From NCBI GenBank assembly GCA_000092065.1, contig CP000587.1: a stretch of 64,000 bases of DNA. One strand, written 5' to 3'. Numbering within the stretch: the first letter of the stretch is position 1; every line of letters begins with the position of its first letter. Of the stretch, positions 4,875 to 63,205 are shown one piece after another. This DNA comes from Ostreococcus lucimarinus (lineage: Eukaryota). The translations under genes and the position numbers were made by a program. The notes beneath the pieces are model-generated. The model made no database searches. It worked only from the letters and a program-made list of their open reading frames with translations, and was not told the DNA's origin.

Positions 4875-5681
4875 TTAAACGTTTACGTTCAACGCCTTGG
4901 AGATGGCGAATGAAACCAAATACGCGGACGCCGCGGCGAGCGTACCGTTCAAGAGCATATACAGCGCGCTACTCGTGACGTTTTGATTCGTGAACTTCGC
5001 TTTGGCCGCGCCCAAAGCGGCCATCGTCATCGCGGTGAGTCCGCACGCCAACCCGAAGAGCGCGTCCCCGTTCGCCCCTCCGATCGCTCGCCCGAAAACG
5101 TACGGCACGAGCGGAACGAAACCAAACAGCGCGAACGCGCAAAACGTCACCAGCCCATTCTTCGCCGGTGAATCCGTTTCATCCGGCGGCATTAACCCGA
5201 GCTCCTCGACCATCATCAAGTCCAAGAAGAAGTTTTTATACTTTGCCAAGCGCTCGATCACCATCGTCGCGTCCTCTTCGCTCACGCCGCGCGCCATGAA
5301 AAGCTCAATCATTTCTCGTTTCTCTCCCTCTGGATAGTTTTCTAATTCCCATTTCTCCCGCTTCTTTTCCGTCTTCGCGTAGTCGAGCTCCGCCTTGCTC
5401 GAAAGGTAATCTCCGAACCCCATGGATATACCGTCGGCCACGAGGTTGGCGAATCCCATCAAAAGCACGACTTCCGTGCTCAGCCCGCCACCCTTGCTCG
5501 CGGCGACGACGGCAAAGGTCGTGATGGTGCCGTCCAGTCCGCCGAAGACGAGAGATTTGACGTACTTGCCAGCCTCCCCCGCGTGACCGGCTTCTATTTC
5601 GCTGTCGTGCGCGGCGCGGCTTGCCGCCGCGTCGGCGCTCTCGAACGCATTCTTCGCCGCGTCGAGATCTCGAGTGGCCAT
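4875..5681 (-). CDS. vacuolar iron transporter (VIT1/CCC1 family)
   Basis: VIT-family motifs GGLDGTITTFAVVAASKGG and GFANLVADGISMGFGDYLS. Five predicted TM helices. Start at MATRDLD (5681). Confidence 0.8.
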   Translation of the reverse strand: MATRDLDAAKNAFESADAAASRAAHDSEIEAGHAGEAGKYVKSLVFGGLDGTITTFAVVAASKGGGLSTEVVLLMGFANLVADGISMGFGDYLSSKAELDYAKTEKKREKWELENYPEGEKREMIELFMARGVSEEDATMVIERLAKYKNFFLDLMMVEELGLMPPDETDSPAKNGLVTFCAFALFGFVPLVPYVFGRAIGGANGDALFGLACGLTAMTMAALGAAKAKFTNQNVTSSALYMLLNGTLAAASAYLVSFAISKALNVNV

Positions 5682-6711
5682 CGTCGCTGAATTCCGCGCC
5701 GGCGTCGAGGAGTGACGCGCGAAGGGCGTCAAACGTCCTAGGAAAAAGTCGGACGGATGGATAGACGCGACCGCGTCGCCGGAATCGTCACGGCGACGGC
5801 GCCGAACGGTGCGATCGCGCGCTCGAACCGTCGTCATCATCATCCAATAAACGCGCCAGAGCGTCATCGCGATCGAGCGCGCCGAAACGCGCGACATTGG
5901 GAGTCGCGAACGCCGCGCCGCCGACGTCGGCGCCGCCGCCTCGACGAGCCGCGCGACGGGTCGGAGTCTCAATCGCGCCCTCGCTCGCGGTTTCCGACAC
6001 CCGACGTCGCTGATGCACCAAAACCGAGGAACCCTCGCGCGCGATCGCGGACGGCGACGCGCGCCGAACGTTCGTGGACGCCCCGGTCGACGGCGGATCG
6101 ACCGCCGACTTCTCGACCTCGCGCGATCGAACCTCCCGCAACGCCACGGGAATGACGGTGTCTCCAAAATTCTCCCCTATCGCGCTCGACGGCGAACCGA
6201 AACACTTCAGCCATCCTCCGCGTCGTTGTTTTGCGCCCTCGACCGTTCCCGCGTCTCGACGCCGCGGCGCGCCCGTTCTCGCCGCGCCTCGTTCCGACGA
6301 CGCCGGCGTCGCCCGCCCCGAGGACCGCCCGCTCGAGCTCAGGCTCTCCATTACCCCTCGCGTGATCGCGAACGCGGTGTCGAACGACCCTCGCTTTCGT
6401 CGGTCGACGCCGTCGCGTCGCTTCGCGCGCGCGTCGCTCGTTCGCCCGCCGCGCGCTTTGGGTTGAATATCCACGCGCGAGGTCACCACCGCCGCGTCGC
6501 TGTCGAGAATCGTGCGCGTGCCGCCGAGCCAATCCGCGAACGAGGCCTCGTCGACGTCGGGGCCGCACTTAAGTTCCGTCATCTTCGCGCGCGCGGCGAT
6601 GGACGCGGACGCGCGCGAGGGTCTGCGGCGAGGGGAACGACGCGCGCGAGATTTGAATTTGAACGCGAAACGCGCGCGCGCGGGGCGGGCGCGTCATTTC
6701 CGCGCGCGACG

Positions 6712-51793: not shown

Positions 51794-52366
51794 CTAAACT
51801 TTCGCGTCCCGCAGCTCGCGCGTCGCCACTCGCCTCCACGACGCGCACGAGTCGTCCTCCACGTCCGTCTCCCACAGACTGATCGCGCTCACAACTATCC
51901 CTCTCGACAGCCCCTCTTCCCTAAAGTACGCGTCCGCCTCCTCTCTGATCCACTCTCTCGCCATCGCATCGTCCACTCCGTACGCCAGGCTCAGGTGCGG
52001 CTCGTACGCCTCCGCCGTCGGGACGCGCGTCCCGTGCGCCCGCTTCGCCCCCTCGAGCGTCGCCATCACGCGCGCGTCCTTTCGGAACCTTCTGTACGCG
52101 CATCGATGTCGCGTCGCGCCCAGAGTCGTGGCCTCGTCGCCGACGTCGTCGAGCGCGAACGCGTCGCGCGGCGTCGCGGCGTCGTCGACGAAGCGCTCGA
52201 ACGCGTCGCGCGCGTCGCCTTCGCGCGCGTCGAACGCGCCGATCACGGTGACGTGCGGCGCGAACGCGGGCGCACCGTCGACGCGCGCGCGGACGCGCTC
52301 GATGAAGCGCGCGATGGCGCGCGCGTGCGCGGCGCGAGGCTCGAGCCACACGCTGTACGACGGCAT
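51794..52366 (-). CDS. 2H phosphoesterase (cyclic phosphodiesterase/LigT-like)
   Basis: Two H-x-T/S-x motifs (APHVTVIG and EPHLSLAYG) with 2H-family spacing. Begins SVWLEP. Confidence 0.55.
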   Translation of the reverse strand: MPSYSVWLEPRAAHARAIARFIERVRARVDGAPAFAPHVTVIGAFDAREGDARDAFERFVDDAATPRDAFALDDVGDEATTLGATRHRCAYRRFRKDARVMATLEGAKRAHGTRVPTAEAYEPHLSLAYGVDDAMAREWIREEADAYFREEGLSRGIVVSAISLWETDVEDDSCASWRRVATRELRDAKV

Positions 52367-52468: not shown

Positions 52469-54019
52469 CTAATACGGTCTGCGTTCGTGTTGGTACACGG
52501 GCGGCGTGGTCCCGCTGCTCTTCGCGGCGGAAAAGTTCTTCTTGAAGTACACGCCGTCGTCGAGGCGTTGATAGTATTCGTCGGGGACGTAGTCTCGGGG
52601 AGAGTAGTGCTGAGCGGCGCGCGCGCTCGGACACGCCTGTAAGGCTTCCCAAATTTTCTCGATGGAGTCCTGCTTCTCAAACGTGCGCGCGCTCGACATG
52701 TTCGATGAAGACGGTTGACGCATGTCGTCCTCGAGCCAAGACTCGTGATCGGGTTCGTCCGGCGGGTACTCCTCGCGATACGCGCGGTCGATGGAGTTGG
52801 ACGCTTGCAACTCGCGCTTGCCAAGGTCGCTATCAGGATCGTCCGATCCCCAAGAGAACTGACGACAATATTTCGGTCTGGGTGGTGGTGGCCGCCGGTC
52901 ACGCGCGTGGACTTGCGCGGGCGTCGCTACAGATGCGGCACGTCCAAAACGCCGTTCTTGCTCGACTTCGCGACGCGCCTCACTCGAGTGATACGGTCGA
53001 AGATCACCGCGCCCTGTGTACCTTCGATCATCTGCGACGACACCTTGGTCGTCTCTCAGCCTTCTTGTGCTCGAGTGCGAACGTTTCGCCTTGCGCTCGG
53101 GGCTCGTTGGTTTTCGTACCACAGGAGCGCTCCCCCCGCCTCTAAGTTCGCGGTCGGCGGACCTTCGCCTCGACTTGGAACCCGAAACCGTATTCATGCG
53201 AGCCTCTTCTTCGTCCATAAAAGTACCTTTTCTTCTCAACAAGTTGCTCAAAGAGCGCATGTATACATTACGCTCTTGCAGTTTCAACGCCGGCGCGTGA
53301 AACTTTACGCCCGGCCAGCCTTGCTCCAGCATCGAGTTATAAAAAAAGCCTTGGTATCCAGCGCGCGCGATCACCTTGCACAGTTCCGCCGCAGGCACCG
53401 CATAGCGTCGCAGACTCGTCCAAATGTAGTTGACCGGTGTGAAAAGCTTGGGATACCGCACACATATGTTGGCAAAGTCTTCGTACATGATGCTTTGACC
53501 GCGTGCGCTATCCAACTGAGCAAATAAATCCTTGTACGCAGCGTATATATCCCGCGGCGCCTTGTCGCGCCAGTCATTCACATTCGCACGCGCGCGTCCC
53601 TCTTTAGTTCGATGTCTAAACATGTTCACGCTCGCTTGAATGCACGCCTTGAACTCATCTTTACTAATCGCTCCGCTATCGTCCAAATCGAGCAACCGAA
53701 ACGCGAACCGCACCCGCCCAGTCGCATTCGCCAACTGAAACGCCCCGAGCACGATTACGAACTCGCGAAAATCTATGTATCCACTCTCATCCGTGTCGAT
53801 CAACGAAAACAACCGATCGAAGAACACGTCCTGCTCCAGTTTGAACGCCCTCGCGAATTCAGACTTTTGAATTCTCCCGTCTCCGTTCGAGTCCGTCTTC
53901 TTAAACAACCGATACGACCGGATCAGGTCTCGCTCGCTCGCCGGGTCGAGCTTCAGGTTCTCTTGCAGCATGCGCGACACGCGTTGGGCGTCGAGCGAGC
54001 GACTGGAGCACAGACCCAT
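52469..54019 (-). CDS. N-myristoylated EF-hand calcium-binding protein (calcineurin-B/NCS-like) with long disordered C-terminal extension
   Basis: MGLCSS myristoylation motif. EF loops DSNGDGRIQKSEF, DTDESGYIDFREF, DLDDSGAISKDEF. About 300-aa basic/Pro-rich tail. Confidence 0.7.
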   Translation of the reverse strand: MGLCSSRSLDAQRVSRMLQENLKLDPASERDLIRSYRLFKKTDSNGDGRIQKSEFARAFKLEQDVFFDRLFSLIDTDESGYIDFREFVIVLGAFQLANATGRVRFAFRLLDLDDSGAISKDEFKACIQASVNMFRHRTKEGRARANVNDWRDKAPRDIYAAYKDLFAQLDSARGQSIMYEDFANICVRYPKLFTPVNYIWTSLRRYAVPAAELCKVIARAGYQGFFYNSMLEQGWPGVKFHAPALKLQERNVYMRSLSNLLRRKGTFMDEEEARMNTVSGSKSRRRSADRELRGGGSAPVVRKPTSPERKAKRSHSSTRRLRDDQGVVADDRRYTGRGDLRPYHSSEARREVEQERRFGRAASVATPAQVHARDRRPPPPRPKYCRQFSWGSDDPDSDLGKRELQASNSIDRAYREEYPPDEPDHESWLEDDMRQPSSSNMSSARTFEKQDSIEKIWEALQACPSARAAQHYSPRDYVPDEYYQRLDDGVYFKKNFSAAKSSGTTPPVYQHERRPY

Positions 54020-54335: not shown

Positions 54336-55907
54336 CTAAGGCATTAGAGACGGTTCGTGTAACGGTTCGAGCGGCGCGTCGCCGTCGTGCGCCGTGCTGT
54401 TATCTACTTGGCACATTTCCCATATTTTTACGCCACAACCGCGCCACAGAGAGTCTTCGATGCGGTCCATCTGATCTTCCGCCGGCCAAAGACCGTCAGG
54501 AGTCGCCAAAACAGCACCGATATAAGACTGACCGGCAGACTTTGCCGCACCAGCGTAGTAGTACAGCGACCAACTCAAATCATCCGCGGCGTCGACGACG
54601 CGCCAGTACTCCTCGCTCGTCACGCCGTTGTCCATGAAGGAAAAAATAAATGTTCCCGGTGTCTCTGCGCGCCTACATCGGTAATCGCTTCGACGGTACA
54701 CGCTCCGACCGTCGAGAGTGTTCACTTTGAAAACAGGATTATACCAGAAAGCAGTTTTGTTTTTCTTATCCTTGTACCATATCTGGAACTGATTCGGAAA
54801 GTAATCGTACGCAGGATTTTGCCCAGCGACGGCGAGCCAACTGTATTGCTTTTCGCCGAGCCATCCTTGCATTATACGCTCCGCGGCGGCGTGCGTCAAC
54901 ATCTCGCCACGCCACGTCGTCATGGGAAGCACAGCCGGTAACTGCGGTCGCTTGGCGTCGTTCCCGAGACAATTGTGCTTGTGAAGCATGCACCTAGCGA
55001 GCTTCTCAAACTGTTCGTTCTGATAGCTCCTTATGCACGTGTACGTGCACACTTGATCGTTGAGTCCGCACGCATCCACGCAATCGAGGCTCTTTTTGCA
55101 TTGCGGATTCTGGTAACACGCGAGTAACTGTTTGTTGCAGTTGCTCGCGATGCACCAAACGTTACCGAGCGTGATGTCCTGGTTTATGTCGACTGCCGGC
55201 ACGCGAGCGCCCGACGCGTCGACGAGCAACAAGATTGAGAGCAACGTATCGAGATGATTTCCACGCGCGTACAACTCCTTCACTTGATCCATCAGTCGTA
55301 CATCCTTCGCCGCCTGACTCCAAGGCGTTAATTTTGCGCCTACCGCGCGCAACTGTCGCGTCGGCTGATAACAAATCCGCTCGTCCGCCTCCAACGCCGG
55401 TGAATTCAGCGCGCAACCAGTCGCCGCCGATGCCGTAGCGCGTCGCACTCTCCCCGCCGTCTCCTCATCATCGACATCTATCGCGATGAAGACATCCGCA
55501 TCGCTCGCACCGCTCGCCCGCATCTCTTCATCGCTCGCGTCGACATCGACCACGATCATCCGTAGCGTTCCCTCGTCCGCGTCGCTCCACGCGACTCTTC
55601 TCGCCAGGTGTTCGAACACTTCACCAAAGCTCGGCCCCTCGACGTCGAACCGTCCGCGCGCCGCGAGTGATTTCGGATACCGCATGAACGACAACGCATC
55701 CTTTCGCGCGAAGCACGCCACGGTGCACGCGGCGCTGGACGCCGCGCGCGACGCGTCGACGACGTCGGGACTGGGCTGGATGGGCGACGTCACGGCGGTG
55801 GCGACGACGCGCGCGGCGCGCGCGGGACCGCGGCGACGCGCGGACGACGCGGTGTGCTGCGCCACCGGTCGCGCGCGCGATGCGGACGCGAACGCGTCGG
55901 CGCGCAT
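54336..55907 (-). CDS. violaxanthin de-epoxidase (VDE)-like lipocalin protein, chloroplast-targeted
   Basis: Transit-peptide-like N-terminus. Cys-rich block (CIASNCNKQLLACYQNPQCKKSLDCVDACGLNDQVCTYTCIRSY). Lipocalin-like core (WYKDKKNKTAFWYNP...DDLSWSLYYYAGA). By-eye assignment to VDE/VDE-related family. Confidence 0.55.
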   Translation of the reverse strand: MRADAFASASRARPVAQHTASSARRRGPARAARVVATAVTSPIQPSPDVVDASRAASSAACTVACFARKDALSFMRYPKSLAARGRFDVEGPSFGEVFEHLARRVAWSDADEGTLRMIVVDVDASDEEMRASGASDADVFIAIDVDDEETAGRVRRATASAATGCALNSPALEADERICYQPTRQLRAVGAKLTPWSQAAKDVRLMDQVKELYARGNHLDTLLSILLLVDASGARVPAVDINQDITLGNVWCIASNCNKQLLACYQNPQCKKSLDCVDACGLNDQVCTYTCIRSYQNEQFEKLARCMLHKHNCLGNDAKRPQLPAVLPMTTWRGEMLTHAAAERIMQGWLGEKQYSWLAVAGQNPAYDYFPNQFQIWYKDKKNKTAFWYNPVFKVNTLDGRSVYRRSDYRCRRAETPGTFIFSFMDNGVTSEEYWRVVDAADDLSWSLYYYAGAAKSAGQSYIGAVLATPDGLWPAEDQMDRIEDSLWRGCGVKIWEMCQVDNSTAHDGDAPLEPLHEPSLMP

Positions 55908-56092: not shown

Positions 56093-58240
56093 TCACCGCT
56101 GTTCAGCGCTGACGAGCGGGCGGTACATGTCGTGCAAGGCTTGGAGCTGATGGAGAAGTCCAAGGTATTGCGTCGACGTATAATCAAAGCACGCCGGGAA
56201 AACGGAACGGCGGTCCGATTCTTTGGCGACTTTGCTTGCCAAGACGATCTCTGAGAGTTCGAGCAGCCTGGCTGTGTGAAGCGTCCCCATGCAAGCGTCC
56301 GCTTCGGCTAGCGCTTGCTTATTTCTCAAAGCAGCTTCGCAGAACTGATAGTCCATCGTGAGCACGGCGAGAAGCGCGGCAGTCTGCATGCACGCCTCTT
56401 CTTGTGAGAGATTCAACAGCCTCGCTTCGAGATTGCGCATGGACGTCGGCGCTCGCTTGAGAAATTCCAAGATGTTCAAAGTGACGTGAAGGTCGGAGAA
56501 GTCTGCGGCGCGGAACATCAACACGCGGTGATTCGCGTGTAGGCTACCGAGTCTAGACAGCAATGAGCTCGTCTCAGCGGTGAACTTTTGCGCGTTCTCC
56601 ACCATGATGACGGATTCCCATCGAACCTGCCGCAAGAGCACGATGTCCAGCACCACCGTTGAGTGCGTCGTGATGAGAACATTGAAGCGAGGAGTTGACA
56701 CGCCGTTGGTCGCACGGGGAAAGGCGCCGACGAAGGACCATTCGTGCTGTTGTACGGTCGCACGGCACGTTGCCGAGCCGCCGTACTCGACGACGTTCAC
56801 GTCTGGCGCAATACGACTGAATTCGCGGGACCAGTGCTCCAGCTCGCTCTCGGCGACGATGATGAGAGACGGCCCGTGTTCGTCGTACTGGCGCTTTCGA
56901 TCGGCAATAAAGTTAGCCGCGACCTCGGCGTGTTTACAGAGCGGCGAGTTATCCACGAAACACACGCCCTCCTTTTCAAACCACGTCGCTAAGAGCCAAC
57001 GTGCGACGCATTGTACGCCTTTGCTCGGTTTGTTACTCTCGTCGACGTTTGCCAAGCTCGGTGGCACGCTGTACGGGCGTTTGAGACTTTCGTGGTCGAA
57101 CTGGGTGTAGCGTTCGAGCAACATGTCGAAATCGTCGTGCCCATCTATCGTCTCCCATGTGCAGTCGGCGTACGGTAATCCCCACCACTTGACGAGCAAG
57201 CGCGTGTTTGGCGGCATGCCCGTCACGTTCACGACGCGTTGCGGGCGCAACCAGGTGCGTTTAACCGCGTATACGGGGTCACCCAACACCGCACGAGGGT
57301 ATTGCGCCTCGAAAGCCCTGAGAATATCCGGACACGCGCGCTCCAAATCCCTCTCGCGCACCCACGAGTTTCGCGCGTGCGACCGTCCTTCCCAGCGCAC
57401 GTAGCACTCCGCCACATCGCGAACGCGTCGCCCAAACACCCCAACCACGCGCTCACCCTCACCAAGAACTTTTTCCAAATCTACGACTTCGAAATCATCC
57501 GCGCCCACGTCCGCGCCCGCATCCGCGTCCTTCGCGTCCTTCGCGTCCTTCGCGTCCTTCGCGTCCTTCGCGCGCTCGTCGTCTCTTCGCGCCCCGTTCC
57601 CATCCTTATCGTCCGCATCGCTTCCAGTATTCGGCGATCGCGCCTCCGGCGGCGTCGCTCGCTTCACGCTCTCCACCGTCCGTCGCGTTCTTCGGCGCGT
57701 CTCTCGTCGTCCCAACGCGCCCGCGCGTTCGTCGCCCGCGCGTTCGCTCAAGTCGCTCCCGCTGCTCCCGCTCGACCCCTTGCTCGCGCGTCTTTTCCCG
57801 TCCTCGCGCCTCGTCGTCCGCGTCGCCCGCGTCGCCTTGCCCACTAAATCGCTCGCCGACGAGTCGTTCGAGCGTTCATCGCGATCGCTCGACGACGTTC
57901 GCGTCGCGCGGCGGTTCGCGAGCGTCGCGCGGCGTCGCGTCGCGGGCATTTCCGCGATATCTTTTCCCGGGACGCGATGACGGCGCGCGCGCGCGCTCGA
58001 CGCGTCGAGATCGTCGCGCGGCGCGCGCGACGGGCGCGAAAAAATTCGCGCGTACCGCGCGCGCTCGCGGTGTGCGCCGATGGAGTTGGACGCGTCGCCG
58101 CGGGCGCGGGGCGCGCGCGCGGGACTGCGACGCGCGAGGGCGCTTTTTCGCGCGAAAAAGGCGGCTTTTTCGGCACGAGATCGAGATCTCTTGAGTCGTG
58201 AACGGTCGATGGAGGGGGTCGAACGGATGCTTTTATCCAA
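56093..58240 (-). CDS. double-chromodomain protein with SNF2-N-like domain (CHD-like), ATPase motifs apparently degenerate
   Basis: Chromodomains CYVRWEGRSHARNSWVRERDL and VKWWGLPYADCTWE. Region collinear with SNF2 N-domain blocks, but GxGKT is replaced by DNSPLCKH and DEAH by VENA. In-frame (KDA)n repeat in the N-terminal region. Confidence 0.55.
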   Translation of the reverse strand: MDKSIRSTPSIDRSRLKRSRSRAEKAAFFARKSALARRSPARAPRARGDASNSIGAHRERARYARIFSRPSRAPRDDLDASSARARRHRVPGKDIAEMPATRRRATLANRRATRTSSSDRDERSNDSSASDLVGKATRATRTTRREDGKRRASKGSSGSSGSDLSERAGDERAGALGRRETRRRTRRTVESVKRATPPEARSPNTGSDADDKDGNGARRDDERAKDAKDAKDAKDAKDADAGADVGADDFEVVDLEKVLGEGERVVGVFGRRVRDVAECYVRWEGRSHARNSWVRERDLERACPDILRAFEAQYPRAVLGDPVYAVKRTWLRPQRVVNVTGMPPNTRLLVKWWGLPYADCTWETIDGHDDFDMLLERYTQFDHESLKRPYSVPPSLANVDESNKPSKGVQCVARWLLATWFEKEGVCFVDNSPLCKHAEVAANFIADRKRQYDEHGPSLIIVAESELEHWSREFSRIAPDVNVVEYGGSATCRATVQQHEWSFVGAFPRATNGVSTPRFNVLITTHSTVVLDIVLLRQVRWESVIMVENAQKFTAETSSLLSRLGSLHANHRVLMFRAADFSDLHVTLNILEFLKRAPTSMRNLEARLLNLSQEEACMQTAALLAVLTMDYQFCEAALRNKQALAEADACMGTLHTARLLELSEIVLASKVAKESDRRSVFPACFDYTSTQYLGLLHQLQALHDMYRPLVSAEQR
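57527..57571. repeat. (gtccttcgc)5 in-frame coding nonamer repeat (encodes KDAKDAKDA...)
   Basis: Read directly. Lies inside the 56093..58240 ORF. Confidence 0.8.
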
Positions 58241-58265: not shown

Positions 58266-59888
58266 TCACGCGCGCGGCTTTGGTCGGCGCGCGCGAGGCG
58301 GGTCTCTCTCGCGCGCGGCGCGCGGTCGTTTGGCCGAGGCGGCGCGGTCGCGGAGATCGGCGACGAAGATGACGTCGTCGGTGGTGGTGGTGGTGGCGTC
58401 GGCGGCGTCGGAGTCGGCGTCCGCGTCGGCGGCGGCGTCGGCGGCGAGCGCGCGGCGAAGCGCCGAGACGTTGTCGCGCGGGAAGGTGTCGAGGGAAATG
58501 CGTCTGAGCTCGCGTGGGAGCGAGCGACAAGACGCTAAATCGATCGTGCGGAGGTTCGGAAAGCGGCCGTGGCGACCGGAGACGAGGTGTTTGATCGTGG
58601 AGGTGGTGACGCCGGATCCGGGGACGCGCAAGACTCGAAGCGGAAAGTCTGGGCCTTCGTGGGCGAAGAGTTGCTCGAACGCGGCGTCGGTGACGAACCT
58701 CGCGTTCGCACCTACGTCTGCAAGCTCGAGGACTTCGAGCGCGGGACAGAGATGAGCGAGGATGTGCGCCACCGCGCCGTCGTCGGAGGAAATCGGGGTA
58801 CGCGCGCATCGAAGCGTCTTGAGCCGCGTCGGCAGGCGATCCCACACGAGGTTGCGCCAGTCCCCTATGTGCGTGCACCCCGTGAGATCGAGAATTTCGA
58901 TGCTCTCTATCGATCCGTACAACATGGATATCATCGTCTCGTCGTTCACGTTCGAGTTGCCGTATCGATGCCCGACGCTCGTCGTCTCCATGGACACCGC
59001 AATTTCGAGCACGCGCAAGTCTTTCCAGCACGTGTGTTCGAAATCTTCGCCAATATCGCCCACGATGCGCCATCCTGATTCTCCGCCAAAATGATTTAGC
59101 TTGAGCTCTTGTAAATGCGGAAGCGCGCGCTGCATGCTGAAGAGCGGAAACCGCACGTCTTCGCCGCAATTCGTGAGGTCGAGCGAGCGAAGCTCGCCGC
59201 AGCGCCTTATCGTCTCGAATAATCTGACCGCTCGCGTCGAGAACGCCCGGCGCTCGTGAGGAGAGTACGGCGCTTCTCGTCCGCAACTGACACTTCGCAA
59301 CGTGTCGCAATTACGAGCGATAAAGTACTCAAAGACTTCGAGTACGTCCGCGGGCGTCATCTTTGGCGAGCTCAAATCTATCTTAATCGCCGCCAGACCC
59401 GGTCGCTGCTCCGCAAAGGCGATCATGGCCGATTTCGTAAATGATCCACCACTAAAAACTACGCTCTCCAGCGACTCGCAACTCTCTCCAAGCAGGCGCA
59501 ACGTCGCGTCCGTCAACTTCCCGCACCCCGACAAATTCAACCGCCGAACGCCGCCAAACACATTCTTTTTCGCGTACGCCCGCATCCTCGCGTCCGTCGC
59601 CGCGCAGAACCCATACGAAATATCGAATTCCTCGTAAAACATCGCCGGTTCCCGCTCGATCGCGTCGCGGAACGTCCTCGACACGCATCGCAGCGCCGCC
59701 GCCGTCGTCGTCCCGCGCGCGCCGTCGTCCCGCACCCGTCTCGCCAAAATCTCCTGCACGATCTCCATCGGCAGCGAATCCAGCGTCGTCCTCGCGTACC
59801 GCGCGTCCTCGCGCGCCGTCGTCGTCGCCCGCAGCGCCTGCATCGCGCGTTCGTCGTCGTCCGGCGTCATCGACTCGGCCACCACCAC
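58266..59888 (-). CDS. F-box/LRR-repeat protein (cysteine-containing LRR subtype, FBXL-like)
   Basis: F-box LPMEIVQEILARRV. CC-type LRRs LNLSGCGKLTD, LDLTNCGE, LDLTGCTHIGD. Confidence 0.65.
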   Translation of the reverse strand: MVVAESMTPDDDERAMQALRATTTAREDARYARTTLDSLPMEIVQEILARRVRDDGARGTTTAAALRCVSRTFRDAIEREPAMFYEEFDISYGFCAATDARMRAYAKKNVFGGVRRLNLSGCGKLTDATLRLLGESCESLESVVFSGGSFTKSAMIAFAEQRPGLAAIKIDLSSPKMTPADVLEVFEYFIARNCDTLRSVSCGREAPYSPHERRAFSTRAVRLFETIRRCGELRSLDLTNCGEDVRFPLFSMQRALPHLQELKLNHFGGESGWRIVGDIGEDFEHTCWKDLRVLEIAVSMETTSVGHRYGNSNVNDETMISMLYGSIESIEILDLTGCTHIGDWRNLVWDRLPTRLKTLRCARTPISSDDGAVAHILAHLCPALEVLELADVGANARFVTDAAFEQLFAHEGPDFPLRVLRVPGSGVTTSTIKHLVSGRHGRFPNLRTIDLASCRSLPRELRRISLDTFPRDNVSALRRALAADAAADADADSDAADATTTTTDDVIFVADLRDRAASAKRPRAARERDPPRARRPKPRA

Positions 59889-60835: not shown

Positions 60836-63205
60836 GTGGAGGCGCCGTTCGGGGATGATGTGCCGGAAGAGTTTCGAAATTCGGCGTTGGAGTACGAGCT
60901 GCGGATGTATAACGGAGAGACGGCGCGGGCGGTGGTGTACCTGGTGTACGCTGAGCCGACGCGCGGGACGAGCGAGGCGCGAGGCGCGGGCGCGCGGGAC
61001 GGGAAGACGAAGGGCGTGAGTGATGGACGAGGGTTTTCATGGTTGCCGGTGATGCGGGAAAAGTGCGTGAAAGGTTGCGATGGGCCGATTTTGAGCGCGA
61101 TTCAGAGGTTTGGGAAGCAAGGGCGGACGCAAAAGAGTGCGGCTTCGCAAAAGGATGCGAAACCCGACGCCAAACCGACGGCGGAGAATGAGTGGAAGGA
61201 TTCACGAAACTTGTTCATCTCCATCGACGAGGCGAGTAATCACGTGTGTGCGTACGGACCGAATCAGTGCAAGGCATTCCGTTTGCTCTTTGGTTTGTAC
61301 GCCAAAGAAACGAACGAGTTTGTGGGGAGCGGCGTCTCAGGACCGATTCGCGTGTTGGCGAATAACGACGTGCCCAAGGGCGCGGCGGCTATGCGCGTGA
61401 AATGTGGATTGAGCGATTCGTGGAACGGTTGGAAGGAAACGGCAGAGAAGAGCGAGGATGATTTGCGAGAAATTTTCCGAGCAGCAAACTGCCCGCAACC
61501 GGCCGGGAAGGCGAACCAGAATCGTCGCCTCGACGACGCGACGCAGCAAAACGCGCGAAAGCCGTTGCAAACCCAGACCAACAACGGTGACAAGGTGGGA
61601 GGCAAGCGCGCGGCGGCCAAGGGAGGTGTAGCGCCGGCTCCGTCGAAGCGCCCGAAGCAAACCGTATCGCAAAAGGCGCAGCTTGCACGCGAATCGAAGT
61701 CGGTGAAGAGGACAAAGTCGGCTCGAAGCGGTGGCTACTTTGATTTCGACACCACCGTGAACACGGCGCTCCAAGATCTCGCGCTCGGTATGCCTGTACT
61801 CGGTGTTTCTGCGCAAGATTCGCAAGACTTACAGTTTCAGTTGAATGCAATCATGCCATCTCCCCTGGGGACGCCGCCGGATGAGAAAGCTGCCGGTGCT
61901 GGCGCGAACCCGTTTGCGGGTATGTTCGGTACGCCCGAATATCTTGCCGCGCAGGAGATCTTGGGCGACGCGCTGAACACGGCTGATCTACCTTCCTTAT
62001 GCACGCCCGGCGATAAAAAGGCCGAGACTAATTTGTACGACGGTATGCCGCCACCCACGACGGGAATGGGCACGTTCAAGTTTACTCCAGGAGCGTTTCC
62101 GAACATCGCGTCCACCGGCAGCATGATGTCCCTCTCTGGGTTGGACTCTCTCGGTGGGCTCATCGGAAGCGCATTTGGAAAGACGCCCGCAGAATTCAAG
62201 ACGAACAAAACAGAGTCGAAGATTTTCACGCGGTCTGCGAAGAAGGTGGCCGCAACCGGCGAACCGACGCCAGTGACGCAATTTGTGAACTCTCTTTTGA
62301 TGAGCAGGCAAAAGGCGTCGGCTGAGAGAACCGCTTCAATGCCGCGCACGTCTCGCAGAAGCACTCGCGCTGCGCTCAAGGAAGTGGCTCCGAGTGATGC
62401 AGCTCCGAGCACGACCGCGGCGAGCAAGTTGATAACTGCGCCCAAGTCTGCGACTGGACAAGCCGAAACTGGTATTGCGACCGGCGTCGCTTCGGCGCCC
62501 GGAGTGGAGGCTGCCGGAGCGACGTTCGACGTCGCCCCGATTCGCGGTGCTCGTAGTCGTCATGCTTCGCCGACTGGTGTTGCGCCCGTTCGCTTATTTT
62601 TCGCGTCTCCTTCAGGTCGCGGTGGAGAGACCTTGGACGGGAGCGATGACGAAGACGACGCTCTGGGATTTGCTTCTCCAAACTTGCGAAAGGATGTGGC
62701 TGGCGCCAACGGTCAACTGTTCAGTGCGCGGGGTAGACGTACGCGTAACGCACCGCAGATTCGGTTACCGCGCATGGCATCCGTTCCAGAGATTGCGAAC
62801 GAAATGACGGCTGGAGAAAAGGCGAGTGATCGTGCGGCTACTAAGGCTGCGAGATTGTCGGGTCACTTTCGTCCTGTGAAGATGCCGCCGCCGCCAAAAC
62901 ACGTCGCGGCGGGTCCGGATTCCATCAAACGGAAGACTAGACACAGTACGGTTCACTTTAGAAATGACGTCAACTTTGAAAACGAGGCTCCGAGCACGTC
63001 CAAGCGCAACGCTTCTGGTGAGGAGAACGAGGCTCCTTCACCGACGGATGTCGCCGCCGCCCTGCTTTCTCCCGGTTGGCCGTCGACGAAAAGGCGCAAG
63101 GCGCTCAATAAACACGCCGACGCGAGCGGTGAAATCAAAGGCAATTCTCCAGGATTCATCGCAACGATCAAGGAGCGCGTCACGAACGCCGTTGGGTGGG
63201 CGTGA
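60836..63205 (+). CDS. hypothetical protein: about 200-aa N-terminal globular domain of unknown family plus about 590-aa disordered S/T/P/A/K-rich tail
   Basis: Long clean ORF with noticeably lower GC than flanking DNA and few antisense ORFs. N-terminal domain contains several Cys. No motif recognised. Confidence 0.5.
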   Translation: MEAPFGDDVPEEFRNSALEYELRMYNGETARAVVYLVYAEPTRGTSEARGAGARDGKTKGVSDGRGFSWLPVMREKCVKGCDGPILSAIQRFGKQGRTQKSAASQKDAKPDAKPTAENEWKDSRNLFISIDEASNHVCAYGPNQCKAFRLLFGLYAKETNEFVGSGVSGPIRVLANNDVPKGAAAMRVKCGLSDSWNGWKETAEKSEDDLREIFRAANCPQPAGKANQNRRLDDATQQNARKPLQTQTNNGDKVGGKRAAAKGGVAPAPSKRPKQTVSQKAQLARESKSVKRTKSARSGGYFDFDTTVNTALQDLALGMPVLGVSAQDSQDLQFQLNAIMPSPLGTPPDEKAAGAGANPFAGMFGTPEYLAAQEILGDALNTADLPSLCTPGDKKAETNLYDGMPPPTTGMGTFKFTPGAFPNIASTGSMMSLSGLDSLGGLIGSAFGKTPAEFKTNKTESKIFTRSAKKVAATGEPTPVTQFVNSLLMSRQKASAERTASMPRTSRRSTRAALKEVAPSDAAPSTTAASKLITAPKSATGQAETGIATGVASAPGVEAAGATFDVAPIRGARSRHASPTGVAPVRLFFASPSGRGGETLDGSDDEDDALGFASPNLRKDVAGANGQLFSARGRRTRNAPQIRLPRMASVPEIANEMTAGEKASDRAATKAARLSGHFRPVKMPPPPKHVAAGPDSIKRKTRHSTVHFRNDVNFENEAPSTSKRNASGEENEAPSPTDVAAALLSPGWPSTKRRKALNKHADASGEIKGNSPGFIATIKERVTNAVGWA

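What the first reader, a model, noticed from the sequence alone, without database searches (positions are those of the whole stretch)
56093..58240. Double-chromodomain CHD-like protein whose SNF2 ATPase motifs look degenerate (candidate pseudo-remodeler)
Two clear chromodomains are followed by a segment collinear with the SNF2 N-terminal domain. The SNF2 spacing of blocks is preserved: ...WLLATWFEKEG.. / ..PSLIIVAESELEHW.. / ..FNVLITTHSTVV.. / ..VRWESVIMVENAQKF...

The catalytic signatures are replaced:
- Walker A LADEMGLGKT becomes VCFVDNSPLCKH.
- DEAH becomes VENA.
- TGTPLQN becomes FRAADFS.
- No helicase-C domain follows before the stop.

If this is real, it is a chromatin reader built on an inactivated remodeler scaffold. 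If not, further exons or a frameshift hide the true motifs.
Basis: partly seen in the sequence, partly recalled or inferred. Interest (0 to 1): 0.55.

Follow-up and report, generated by a model that had tools for sequence, protein, structure and literature searches.

The report
Dead, half-length CHD remodeler in picoalgae
This is a real, conserved gene of Ostreococcus-type marine picoalgae that keeps the two chromodomains and first motor half of a plant CHR4/Mi-2-type chromatin remodeler, has lost every ATP-handling motif and the whole second motor half, and so most likely acts as a non-enzymatic chromatin protein.

Summary

- **Gene model.** The real CDS is 57949..56093 (minus strand, 618 aa, ATG start). 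The 715-aa ORF includes a mechanical TTG-start extension.
- **Domains.** Pfam finds two chromodomains plus only the first half of SNF2-rel_dom, and no Helicase_C.
- **Collinearity.** The protein aligns collinearly with plant CHR4/PKR1 (CHD subfamily II). The alignment runs from chromodomain 1 to the helix just before motif IV, where the protein stops.
- **Lost motifs.** The Q-motif segment is deleted. DEMGLGKT becomes DNSPLCKH. TGTPLQN becomes FRAADFS.
- **No hidden exons.** The next gene, a VDE-domain gene, starts 185 bp downstream. tblastn finds no PHD finger or lobe 2 anywhere in the 64 kb.
- **Conservation.** Twenty orthologues, down to 53% identity and including O. tauri XP_003081108.2, share the same losses, the same stop position and, in the five loci inspected, the same gene order. 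The dead lobe is the most constrained part (dN/dS about 0.1). This is not a pseudogene or an artefact.
- **Wider family.** Intron-bearing relatives that look like Micromonas have the same architecture.
- **Precedents.** Arabidopsis MOM1 (lobe-2 remnant) and yeast Hda2/Hda3.
- **Function.** A static chromatin adaptor role is inferred, not shown.

The parts
56093..57949 (-). True coding sequence: 618 codons plus stop, ATG at 57949 (MPATRRR...), TGA at 56093-56095, with no intron.
   Evidence: This is the first ATG of the ORF. Orthologues begin at the same MPATRR/MPxTR N-terminus. CHR4 aligns in one frame without a break.
57950..58240 (-). Mechanical 5' extension of the listed ORF (TTG start, 97 codons). 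It is most likely 5' leader or intergenic sequence and not part of the protein.
   Evidence: It contains no ATG. It begins 26 bp after the stop (58266) of the upstream F-box/LRR gene. The MPxTRR-type N-termini of several orthologues align with the ATG at 57949.
57500..57949 (-). N-terminal low-complexity Arg/Ser/Asp-rich region (residues 1-150 of the 618-aa protein), evolving almost neutrally.
   Evidence: dN/dS is 0.70 against the 93%-identical orthologue and about 0.7-1.4 against distant ones. Pfam finds no domain and no PHD finger here.
57524..57572 (.). Perfect 9-bp tandem repeat (5.4 copies) encoding (KDA)n inside the N-terminal region. Copy number appears to differ from a 99%-identical relative.
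   Evidence: TRF: period 9, 100% matches, score 98. P0002 shows a 6-residue gap at this array in the alignment.
57299..57454 (-). Chromodomain 1 (residues 166-217), with an incomplete aromatic cage.
   Evidence: Pfam Chromo. In the alignment to HP1/CBX3, W45 is kept while Y24 and Y48 are both Arg. It also aligns to chromodomain 1 of CHD4 and CHD1.
57098..57256 (-). Chromodomain 2 (residues 232-284), CHD3/4/5-like (KWWGLPYxDCTWE).
   Evidence: This is the best Pfam Chromo stretch, 346-378 in ORF numbering. The best PDB matches are the CHD4/CHD5 tandem chromodomains at 3e-8 to 7e-7.
56492..57016 (-). SNF2 ATPase lobe 1 (RecA-like domain 1) with all ATP-handling motifs replaced. It is the most strongly constrained part of the gene.
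   Evidence: Pfam SNF2-rel_dom covers profile 6-159/290. It is collinear with CHR4. dN/dS is 0.10 against L001 and 0.05-0.15 against the distant loci where dS could be computed. The AF2 model has pLDDT mostly 80-95 here, and the best structural matches are CHD4 and Chd1.
56930..56965 (-). Motif I equivalent: VCFVDNSPLCKH in place of ILADEMGLGKT. The P-loop glycines and Thr are lost.
   Evidence: Across orthologues, EGVCxVDN is nearly invariant and the rest is variable.
56831..56872 (-). Motif Ia equivalent: PSLIIVAESELEHW. The beta-strand core and the Trp are kept, while the canonical P-L-S-T positions vary among orthologues.
56582..56611 (-). Motif II equivalent: VIMVENAQKF, with DE(A/G)H aligning to ENAQ. 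The catalytic Glu is lost.
   Evidence: Orthologues carry E/D followed by N/H/S/G.
56492..56530 (-). Motif III equivalent: HRVLMFRAADFSD in place of HRVLLTGTPLQNN.
56351..56491 (-). SNF2-specific helical region after motif III (LHVTLNILEFLKR...MRNLEARLLNLS...QTAALLA). It is extremely conserved.
   Evidence: All 47 codons are identical in the 93% orthologue. dN/dS is 0.05-0.12 against distant loci. It is collinear with CHR4 'MYNLLNFLQP...LKKLVAPHMLRR'.
56096..56350 (-). C-terminal tail: two predicted helices that align with the CHR4 linker up to the 'KLxxLHSML' helix just before motif IV. The protein ends there.
   Evidence: alignment. (helices 404-422 and 443-459 of the model, at low pLDDT 40-55). 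Invariant residues MGxLHxARLxxLxxIVL and FPxxFDxxSxxY...L..L..MY.

Best explanation
The gene encodes a 618-aa nuclear protein derived from a CHD subfamily II remodeler of the plant CHR4/PKR1 type.

What was lost: the PHD finger, the Q motif, motifs I, II and III, the entire second RecA lobe (motifs IV-VI) and all C-terminal domains.

What was kept, under purifying selection: the tandem chromodomains, the fold of ATPase lobe 1 and the SNF2-specific helices that follow it.

Shown here: the gene is real, intact and conserved in Ostreococcus lineages and in intron-bearing relatives that look like Micromonas. It lacks every element needed to bind and hydrolyse ATP.

Inferred: it works as a non-enzymatic chromatin protein. 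The chromodomain-lobe 1 module may dock statically on nucleosomes or DNA, as the same module does in CHD4 and Chd1. Alternatively it may dock on a partner. The invariant post-motif-III helices and C-terminal helices would then recruit or hold partner proteins. That makes it an adaptor, scaffold or competitor rather than a motor.
For: Homology and architecture:
- Pfam: Chromo x2 plus half of SNF2-rel_dom, no Helicase_C.
- PDB: CHD4 at 3e-15 and Chd1 at 4.7e-14.
- Alignment with CHR4 is collinear from chromodomain 1 to just before motif IV.
- Best BLASTP scores go to CHR4/PKR1-type proteins (163 bits), against 97-113 for PICKLE and 89-94 for animal CHD3/4/5.
- The top canonical profile hits carry PHD + 2 Chromo + SNF2 + Helicase_C + DUF1087 and are named CHROMATIN REMODELING 4.

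Loss of catalysis:
- Motifs Q, I, II and III are replaced in all 20 aligned orthologues.
- Among the first 60 non-family hits printed, all canonical hits keep DEMGLGKT.

Not truncated by annotation:
- A VDE-domain gene starts 185 bp downstream.
- No PHD or lobe 2 similarity exists anywhere in the window or in nine related loci.
- The order LRR/F-box, CHD-like, VDE, EF-hand, CPDase is the same in five orthologous loci.

Functional constraint:
- dN/dS is about 0.10 for the dead lobe, about 0.05-0.12 for the post-III helices, about 0.3 for the chromodomains and about 0.7-1.4 for the N-terminal region.

Structure:
- AF2 gives pLDDT 79.5 and pTM 0.80. Foldseek's best matches are CHD4 (5.9e-20, TMq 0.57) and Chd1.

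Wider distribution:
- The L008/L009 multi-exon gene, P0116 and P0118 have chromodomains, a lobe 1 without a P-loop, and no Helicase_C.

Precedents for inert SNF2 pieces acting non-enzymatically:
- Hda2/Hda3 (PMC7793584).
- MOM1 (PMC2507757; PMC9113485).
Against: - No experimental or expression data were available, so nuclear localisation, nucleosome or DNA binding and partners are all inferred.
- The DNA-contacting Ser/Thr positions of motif Ia are not conserved among orthologues. Static DNA binding through the canonical lobe 1 surface is therefore uncertain.
- Chromodomain 1 lacks two of three cage aromatics, so histone-mark reading is doubtful.
- The C-terminal 75 residues are modelled at low confidence.
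- The second AF2 model used canonical CHDs in its alignment, so its resemblance to CHD4 is partly built in.
- dS is saturated for the distant pairs. Only the comparison with L001 is quantitatively reliable, and that pair has few substitutions.
Confidence: 0.72

Rival explanations
1. It is a decaying pseudogene, meaning a recently inactivated CHD gene on its way out, and the motif changes are neutral decay.
For: All catalytic motifs are gone and half the enzyme is missing. The N-terminal region evolves nearly neutrally. Two database relatives (P0025, P0121) look frameshifted.
Against: - The ORF is intact with the same end in 20 orthologues spanning 53-99% identity, including O. tauri.
- dN/dS is about 0.1 in the dead lobe and about 0.05-0.12 in the following helices.
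- Many invariant residues lie inside the replaced motifs (EGVCxVDN, HRVLMF).
- The same architecture is present in intron-bearing Micromonas-like algae.
Confidence: 0.03
2. It is an artefact of gene modelling. A frameshift, a missed intron or further exons would hide the true motifs and a Helicase_C domain.
Against: - There is one uninterrupted in-frame HSP to CHR4 across motifs I-III.
- No lobe 2 or PHD similarity appears in any frame of the 64 kb or of nine related loci.
- The downstream neighbour starts after 185 bp.
- Independent assemblies from many metagenomes give the same protein. The 90%-identity cluster has 150 members.
- The O. tauri RefSeq model is 615 aa.
Confidence: 0.02
3. It is half of a split motor. 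It would pair with a separately encoded lobe 2 protein to rebuild an active ATPase, as was once proposed in mirror image for MOM1.
For: MOM1 retains only lobe 2 motifs, and a heterodimer with a lobe 1 donor was originally proposed (PMC2507757). Here the protein ends exactly at the lobe 1/lobe 2 boundary.
Against: - The ATP-binding elements that lobe 1 must supply (Q, Walker A, the catalytic Glu of motif II, motif III) are the ones lost, so a partner lobe 2 could not restore hydrolysis.
- In MOM1 the SNF2 remnant proved dispensable.
- No candidate partner was found in the window.
Confidence: 0.05
4. It is a histone methyl-lysine reader. The chromodomains would bind H3K4me, H3K9me or H3K27me and the dead lobe would be only a spacer.
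For: There are two bona fide chromodomains. Chromodomain 1 aligns with HP1 and CBX chromodomains at about 1e-4.
Against: - Two of the three HP1 cage positions are Arg in chromodomain 1, and the position matching the second cage Trp of CHD1 (aligned to query R) is R/K/C across orthologues.
- The domains resemble CHD3/4/5 chromodomains most closely. From my own knowledge, those bind DNA or nucleosomes rather than methyl-lysine.
- The lobe, not the chromodomains, is the most constrained part.
Confidence: 0.15

Closest known systems
Plant CHROMATIN REMODELING 4 (CHR4 / PKR1), CHD subfamily II (Mi-2/CHD3 type)
   Same: - Tandem chromodomains and lobe 1 are collinear at about 29-31% identity.
- Signature stretches are shared, for example AP(D/E)xNVVEYxG......(I/V)xQHEW.
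- CHR4 proteins are the top canonical hits in the exhaustive profile search.
   Different: - CHR4 has a PHD finger, an intact Q motif, DEMGLGKT, DEGH and TGTPLQN, plus Helicase_C and DUF1087, and is about 2,000-2,400 aa.
- The algal protein has none of these and is 618 aa.
Arabidopsis MOM1 (Morpheus' molecule 1), a CHD3-derived silencing factor
   Same: - It derives from a CHD subfamily II remodeler by loss of accessory domains and most of the ATPase.
- It acts without remodeling activity (PMC2507757; PMC9113485).
   Different: - MOM1 keeps only lobe 2 motifs IV-VI, has lost its chromodomains, and works through the acquired CMM2 coiled coil.
- The MOM clade is recorded only in land plants, with none in Chlorophyta (Table 2 of PMC9113485).
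- Here lobe 1 and the chromodomains are kept and constrained.
- No MOM1 chain appears among the PDB hits at E<=1.
- This looks like an independent, mirror-image case.
Yeast Hda2/Hda3 subunits of the class II HDAC complex
   Same: A single, ATP-motif-less SNF2-type RecA lobe with the SNF2-specific helical subdomain is used as a DNA-binding and scaffolding module (PMC7793584).
   Different: - Hda2/3 resemble lobe 2 and have coiled-coil tails and no chromodomains.
- Pfam HDA2-3 (PF11496) hits canonical CHR4 but not this protein.
Human CHD4 / yeast Chd1 chromodomain-ATPase module (solved structures 6RYR, 3MWY, 7TN2)
   Same: These are the best sequence and fold matches for the chromodomain-lobe 1 part.
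   Different: They are active two-lobe motors with intact motifs I-VI.

Membership tests
SNF2-family ATPase / CHD remodeler (enzyme) | Lobe 1 fold (Pfam SNF2-rel_dom) | tested here: met
   E 4.5e-11, 42.8 bits (cut-off 24.9), but only profile positions 6-159/290. The alignment with CHR4 extends to the end of lobe 1. The AF2 and Foldseek results agree with this.
SNF2-family ATPase / CHD remodeler (enzyme) | Motif I / Walker A (DEMGLGKT) | tested here: not met
   The window has DNSPLCKH. The glycines and Thr are lost in all orthologues. Among the first 60 non-family hits printed, all canonical hits keep DEMGLGKT.
SNF2-family ATPase / CHD remodeler (enzyme) | Motif II / Walker B DExH with catalytic Glu | tested here: not met
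   The window has ENAQ. The Glu position is N/H/S/G in Ostreococcus orthologues.
SNF2-family ATPase / CHD remodeler (enzyme) | Q motif and motif III (TGTPLQN) | tested here: not met
   The Q-motif segment is deleted. Motif III is FRAADFS here and FRSADF in the consensus.
SNF2-family ATPase / CHD remodeler (enzyme) | Lobe 2 / Helicase_C with motifs IV-VI | tested here: not met
   Pfam gives no hit at E<=10. The protein stops before motif IV. tblastn with CHR4 lobe 2 finds nothing in the window or related loci.
CHD subfamily II (Mi-2/CHD3/PKL/PKR1) | Tandem chromodomains N-terminal of the ATPase | tested here: met
   Pfam Chromo with 2 stretches. The best PDB matches are the CHD4/CHD5 tandem chromodomains.
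CHD subfamily II (Mi-2/CHD3/PKL/PKR1) | N-terminal PHD finger(s) and C-terminal DUF1087 / DUF1086 / SLIDE | tested here: not met
   None appear in Pfam. No CHR4 PHD similarity is found in the window. Canonical CHR4 has PHD and DUF1087.
CHD subfamily II (Mi-2/CHD3/PKL/PKR1) | Closest sequence relatives lie in this subfamily (descent) | tested here: met
   The profile search ranks CHR4/PKR1-type proteins first among canonical hits. BLASTP gives 163 bits to CHR4, against 97-113 for PICKLE and 89-94 for animal CHD3/4/5. No tree was built.
MOM1 family | CMM2 coiled-coil motif; SNF2 remnant of lobe 2 only; land-plant distribution | tested here: not met
   The remnant here is lobe 1. No MOM1/CMM2 chain appears among PDB hits at E<=1; this is a weak test, assuming a CMM2 structure is deposited. 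The MOM clade has no Chlorophyta members in PMC9113485 Table 2.
Hda2/Hda3 (Pfam HDA2-3, PF11496) | Match to the HDA2-3 profile (lobe 2-like domain) | tested here: not met
   It is not reported for the window protein at E<=10. It is reported for canonical CHR4 proteins.
HP1/Polycomb-type methyl-lysine-binding chromodomain | Three-residue aromatic cage (HP1 Y24, W45, Y48) | tested here: not met
   Alignment to HP1 and CBX3 gives Y24 to R, W45 kept and Y48 to R in chromodomain 1. Chromodomain 2 has Leu at the Y48 position, as in CHD4.

The most novel reading that the evidence does not exclude
In Mamiellales picoalgae the PKR1/CHR4-type Mi-2 gene itself, rather than a spare copy, has been converted into a motor-less chromatin architectural protein. 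Its conserved, re-purposed lobe 1 surface (EGVCxVDN and the post-motif-III helices) would form a new protein- or nucleosome-binding module. This would be an independent, mirror-image parallel to MOM1. It would show that half of a Snf2 motor can be retained for hundreds of millions of years for a non-catalytic job in some of the most streamlined eukaryotic genomes.
Probability: 0.3. Interest if true: 0.65.

Novelty: new variant of a known kind. Interest (0 to 1): 0.5.

Why it matters
Snf2 motors are usually treated as indivisible two-lobe machines. Well-studied cases of inert Snf2 pieces retained for other jobs, such as MOM1 and Hda2/Hda3, keep lobe 2.

This is a lobe 1-only derivative that still carries its chromodomains. 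It is under strong purifying selection in abundant marine picoalgae with very compact genomes. O. tauri is, to my knowledge, genetically tractable, so the family offers a natural experiment on two questions:
- what the chromodomain-lobe 1 module does apart from ATP hydrolysis;
- how remodelers turn into pseudoenzymes.

It also matters for annotation. The O. tauri orthologue is labelled 'SNF2-related' or 'chromodomain helicase DNA binding protein-like'. Those names imply an enzyme that this protein cannot be.

Tried and rejected
- **Does the same alga keep a canonical subfamily II CHD?** I searched with the Cymbomonas CHD (P0132). The 120 listed hits were animals, land plants and unnamed metagenome proteins. 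No Mamiellales name appeared, so the search was uninformative and is not evidence of absence. Cluster look-ups of ten GC-rich second-tier hits gave Chlorokybus, Spirogloea, Riccia, Myrmecia, Cymbomonas, a Porphyra-like sequence and others, but no Mamiellales.
- **Published CHD survey.** I looked for the family in the supplementary tables of PMC9113485, but no supplements are held. Its main text does not mention Ostreococcus.
- **Literature searches.** Searches for Ostreococcus with chromodomain/SNF2, and for pseudo-ATPase Snf2, found no description of this protein.
- **First AF2 model.** The model from 20 orthologues only was mediocre (pLDDT 63). A second model with canonical CHDs added to the alignment was better (79.5), but its likeness to CHD4 is partly built in.
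- **'HGKTG' in the L008 relative.** I considered this stretch as a surviving Walker A. I rejected it because it lies in a variable insertion and is absent from P0118 and P0116.
- **Cysteines around the former P-loop.** I considered C-x7-C-x-H as a metal site. The second Cys and the His are not conserved.
Full report
**What is in the sequence**

The ORF 56093..58240 on the minus strand exists as listed. Its first 97 codons are a mechanical extension from a TTG that lies 26 bp after the stop of the upstream gene. The first ATG is at 57949 (MPATRRR...), which matches the MPATRR-type N-termini of several orthologues. The real product is therefore 618 aa, encoded by 57949..56093 without introns.

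The window has 57-70% G+C and is densely packed with mostly uninterrupted ORFs. The gene's closest named relative is the Ostreococcus tauri protein XP_003081108.2 / CEF98981.1, annotated 'SNF2-related', together with OUS47534.1, annotated 'chromodomain helicase DNA binding protein-like protein'. The window is therefore from an Ostreococcus-type Mamiellales picoalga. I did not determine the species.

**Checking the observation**

- Pfam reports Chromo with two stretches (E 4.8e-12).
- Pfam reports SNF2-rel_dom at E 4.5e-11, above the curated cut-off, but covering only profile positions 6-159 of 290. No Helicase_C appears even at E<=10.
- phmmer against PDB ranks human CHD4 (3e-15) and yeast Chd1 (4.7e-14) first.
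- Those alignments place VDNSPLCKH opposite ADEMGLGKT, ENAQ opposite DEAH and FRAADFS opposite TGTPLQN.

The Walker B Asp position stays acidic (E or D in orthologues), while the catalytic Glu becomes N/H/S/G. The Walker A Lys happens to survive in this sequence but is not conserved. Both P-loop glycines and the Thr are gone in all orthologues.

**Is it truncated, or just mis-modelled?**

- The stop codon at 56093-56095 is followed 185 bp later by the ATG of a gene with a VDE lipocalin domain.
- tblastn of a full-length Malus CHR4 (2,342 aa) against the window gives a single in-frame HSP, CHR4 633-995 to 57415..56366, at E 5e-40. Nothing matches its PHD finger, lobe 2 or C-terminal domains anywhere in the 64 kb. 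The same holds in nine related loci.
- Five orthologous loci from independent metagenome assemblies keep the same gene order: F-box/LRR, CHD-like, VDE, EF-hand, cyclic phosphodiesterase-like. One of them encodes P0008, whose 90%-identity cluster contains the O. tauri proteins.
- The MAFFT alignment with three CHR4-type proteins is collinear from chromodomain 1 through lobe 1, the SNF2-specific helices and the linker. It reaches the 'KLxxLHSML' helix that immediately precedes motif IV (HRVLIFSQ). The algal proteins end exactly there.

This is a clean, conserved truncation at the lobe 1/lobe 2 boundary. It is not an annotation artefact.

**Is it a living gene?**

A word-indexed search found 25 relatives. 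About 20 of them are full-length orthologues at 53-99% identity and 560-710 aa, and all have the same replaced motifs and the same C-terminus. The cluster at 99% identity has 150 member sequences from marine metagenomes, including Tara.

Nei-Gojobori estimates against the 93%-identical orthologue, where dS is unsaturated:

| Region | dN/dS vs L001 |
|---|---|
| Dead lobe 1 | 0.10 |
| Chromodomains | 0.36 |
| N-terminal low-complexity region | 0.70 |
| 47 codons after motif III | no change at all |

Against distant orthologues, where dS is saturated and the values are only indicative, lobe 1 gives 0.05-0.15 and the post-III helices give 0.05-0.12. The N-terminal region gives about 0.7-1.4.

Residues inside the former motifs are themselves nearly invariant (EGVCxVDN, HRVLMF). 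This argues for a new constraint rather than decay. The pseudogene reading is rejected.

**Where it comes from**

An exhaustive profile search of 1.84 billion representative proteins shows a large gap. Three family representatives score about 950-965 bits. The score then drops to about 200 bits for some 30 proteins of roughly 2,000-2,500 aa. These carry PHD + two Chromo + SNF2 + Helicase_C + DUF1087 and are named 'CHROMATIN REMODELING 4' in Malus, Pyrus and Beta. This tier also includes Chlorokybus, Riccia and Spirogloea.

BLASTP with the window protein points the same way:

| Subject | Bits |
|---|---|
| CHR4 | 158-163 |
| Chlorokybus | 151 |
| PICKLE | 97-113 |
| Animal CHD3/4/5 and Mi-2 | 89-94 |

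The published CHD survey calls this clade PKR1. It is one of four Viridiplantae clades of CHD subfamily II (PKL, PKR1, PKR4, MOM) and was found in only 4 chlorophyte species (PMC9113485). The algal protein is therefore a PKR1/CHR4-type derivative. I could not establish whether it is the converted orthologue or a paralogue alongside an intact enzyme.

**Wider distribution**

Among the first 60 non-family hits of the profile search, only P0116, P0118 and P0121 lack DEMGLGKT. P0121 looks like a frameshifted fragment of the family itself. P0116, P0118 and P0228 are G+C-rich, low-complexity-rich proteins that have:
- the family's pre-motif I signature ((A/V)RWLLSAW(M/A)HREGV);
- no P-loop;
- non-canonical motif III (LMLNT / LMLDG / LVLSG);
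- the conserved 'L..L.F.K.SPEGM.ALERHLLG' helices.

A Tara scaffold (L008) and a second contig (L009) carry the whole gene as several exons. The exons are separated by about 75-nt repeated GT...AG introns, which look to me like Micromonas pusilla-type introner elements. The gene encodes chromodomain 1, chromodomain 2, a P-loop-less lobe 1 and a long low-complexity tail. It has no Helicase_C and is followed by a convergent U-box gene.

These relatives keep two acidic residues at the motif II position (ED/EE/DD). Their exon structure is not fully resolved, so I do not interpret this further. The architecture appears to predate the Ostreococcus/Micromonas-like split.

**Structure**

With orthologues only, AF2 gave pLDDT 63. 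Adding 28 canonical subfamily II CHDs to the alignment gave pLDDT 79.5 and pTM 0.80. The chromodomains and lobe 1 mostly score 80-95, and the last 75 residues score 40-55.

Foldseek against PDB ranks the CHD4-nucleosome structure first (6RYR, E 5.9e-20, TMq 0.57). The second result is partly conditioned by the alignment used.

**Chromodomains**

They resemble the CHD4/CHD5 tandem chromodomains most closely (3e-8 to 7e-7). Aligned to HP1 and CBX3, chromodomain 1 keeps the central Trp (HP1 W45) but has Arg at both other cage positions (Y24, Y48). The position matching the second cage Trp of human CHD1 is R/K/C across orthologues. A methyl-lysine 'reader' role is therefore not supported. From my own knowledge, Mi-2-type chromodomains contact DNA.

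**How it most likely works**

Shown here:
- the protein cannot be an SF2 ATPase, because it lacks Q, Walker A, the catalytic Glu, motif III and the whole lobe that supplies motifs IV-VI;
- its inert lobe and the following helices are nevertheless the most constrained parts.

Inferred: it is a non-enzymatic chromatin protein.
- The chromodomain-lobe 1 module sits on nucleosomal DNA in CHD4 and Chd1. Here it would dock statically on nucleosomes, DNA or a partner.
- The invariant helical surfaces after motif III and at the C-terminus would hold partner proteins.

It could act as an adaptor or scaffold, or as a competitor for remodeler binding sites.

One caveat weakens the specific 'static DNA clamp' version. 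The canonical DNA-contacting P-L-S-T positions of motif Ia vary among orthologues.

**Comparison with what is known**

Two precedents show the principle.
- Yeast Hda2/Hda3 contain an ATP-motif-less second SF2 lobe with the SNF2-specific subdomain. They use it for DNA binding and scaffolding in an HDAC complex (PMC7793584).
- Arabidopsis MOM1 evolved from CHD3-type proteins. It retains only lobe 2 motifs IV-VI, which are dispensable, and silences through the acquired CMM2 motif (PMC2507757; PMC9113485).

The present family differs from both:
- it keeps lobe 1 and the chromodomains, and these are constrained rather than dispensable-looking;
- it does not hit the HDA2-3 profile or any MOM1 chain in PDB;
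- it occurs in chlorophyte picoalgae, where no MOM clade is recorded.

I found no paper describing it. I file it as a new variant of a known kind: a CHD-derived pseudo-remodeler.

**Verdict**

The gene model, the motif II register and the 'reader' label needed correction. Interest is moderate (0.5). The concept has precedents. A conserved lobe 1-only, chromodomain-bearing Snf2 relic in abundant picoalgae (O. tauri is, to my knowledge, tractable) is unusual and directly testable.

Noticed in passing
window 57524-57572: A perfect 9-bp x 5.4 tandem repeat sits inside the CDS and encodes (KDA)n. The 99%-identical metagenome protein P0002 shows a 6-residue gap at this array in the alignment, suggesting a copy-number polymorphism between strains.
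   Followed up: partly
window 54336-55907 (-): The downstream neighbour is a 523-aa protein with a VDE lipocalin domain (violaxanthin de-epoxidase family, E 2.4e-21). It is syntenic with the CHD-like gene in all five orthologous loci examined.
   Followed up: partly
window 58266-59888 (-), 52469-54019 (-), 51794-52366 (-): Other neighbours are an F-box/LRR protein, an EF-hand protein of 516 aa with a long disordered tail, and a 2',5' RNA ligase / cyclic phosphodiesterase-like protein. Their order is conserved across the Ostreococcus-type loci.
   Followed up: partly
window 60836-63205 (+): A 789-aa ORF has no Pfam match. A gene of similar length (about 720-825 aa, no Pfam hit) occupies the equivalent position in the related loci. 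This is a conserved orphan protein of these algae.
   Followed up: no
L008 3523-3600, 4725-4802, 5231-5308, about 5933-5980: Four copies of a roughly 75-nt repeated element with GTAAGT...CAG ends interrupt the Micromonas-like homologue. They look like introner-element-type introns. When read through by prokaryotic gene callers, they produce spurious peptides such as 'KYFPFNTFHKLIAHTWLTFLF'.
   Followed up: partly
P0025 and P0121 (database relatives, no window coordinates): Two family members look frameshifted, with family sequence alternating with unrelated residues. They are either assembly errors or genuinely disrupted copies in some populations.
   Followed up: no
L008 about 5500-5600: The translated ORFs show a run of X, implying N bases. 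This scaffold gap lies inside the Micromonas-like gene, so part of its lobe 1 is unknown in that locus. L009 covers it.
   Followed up: no
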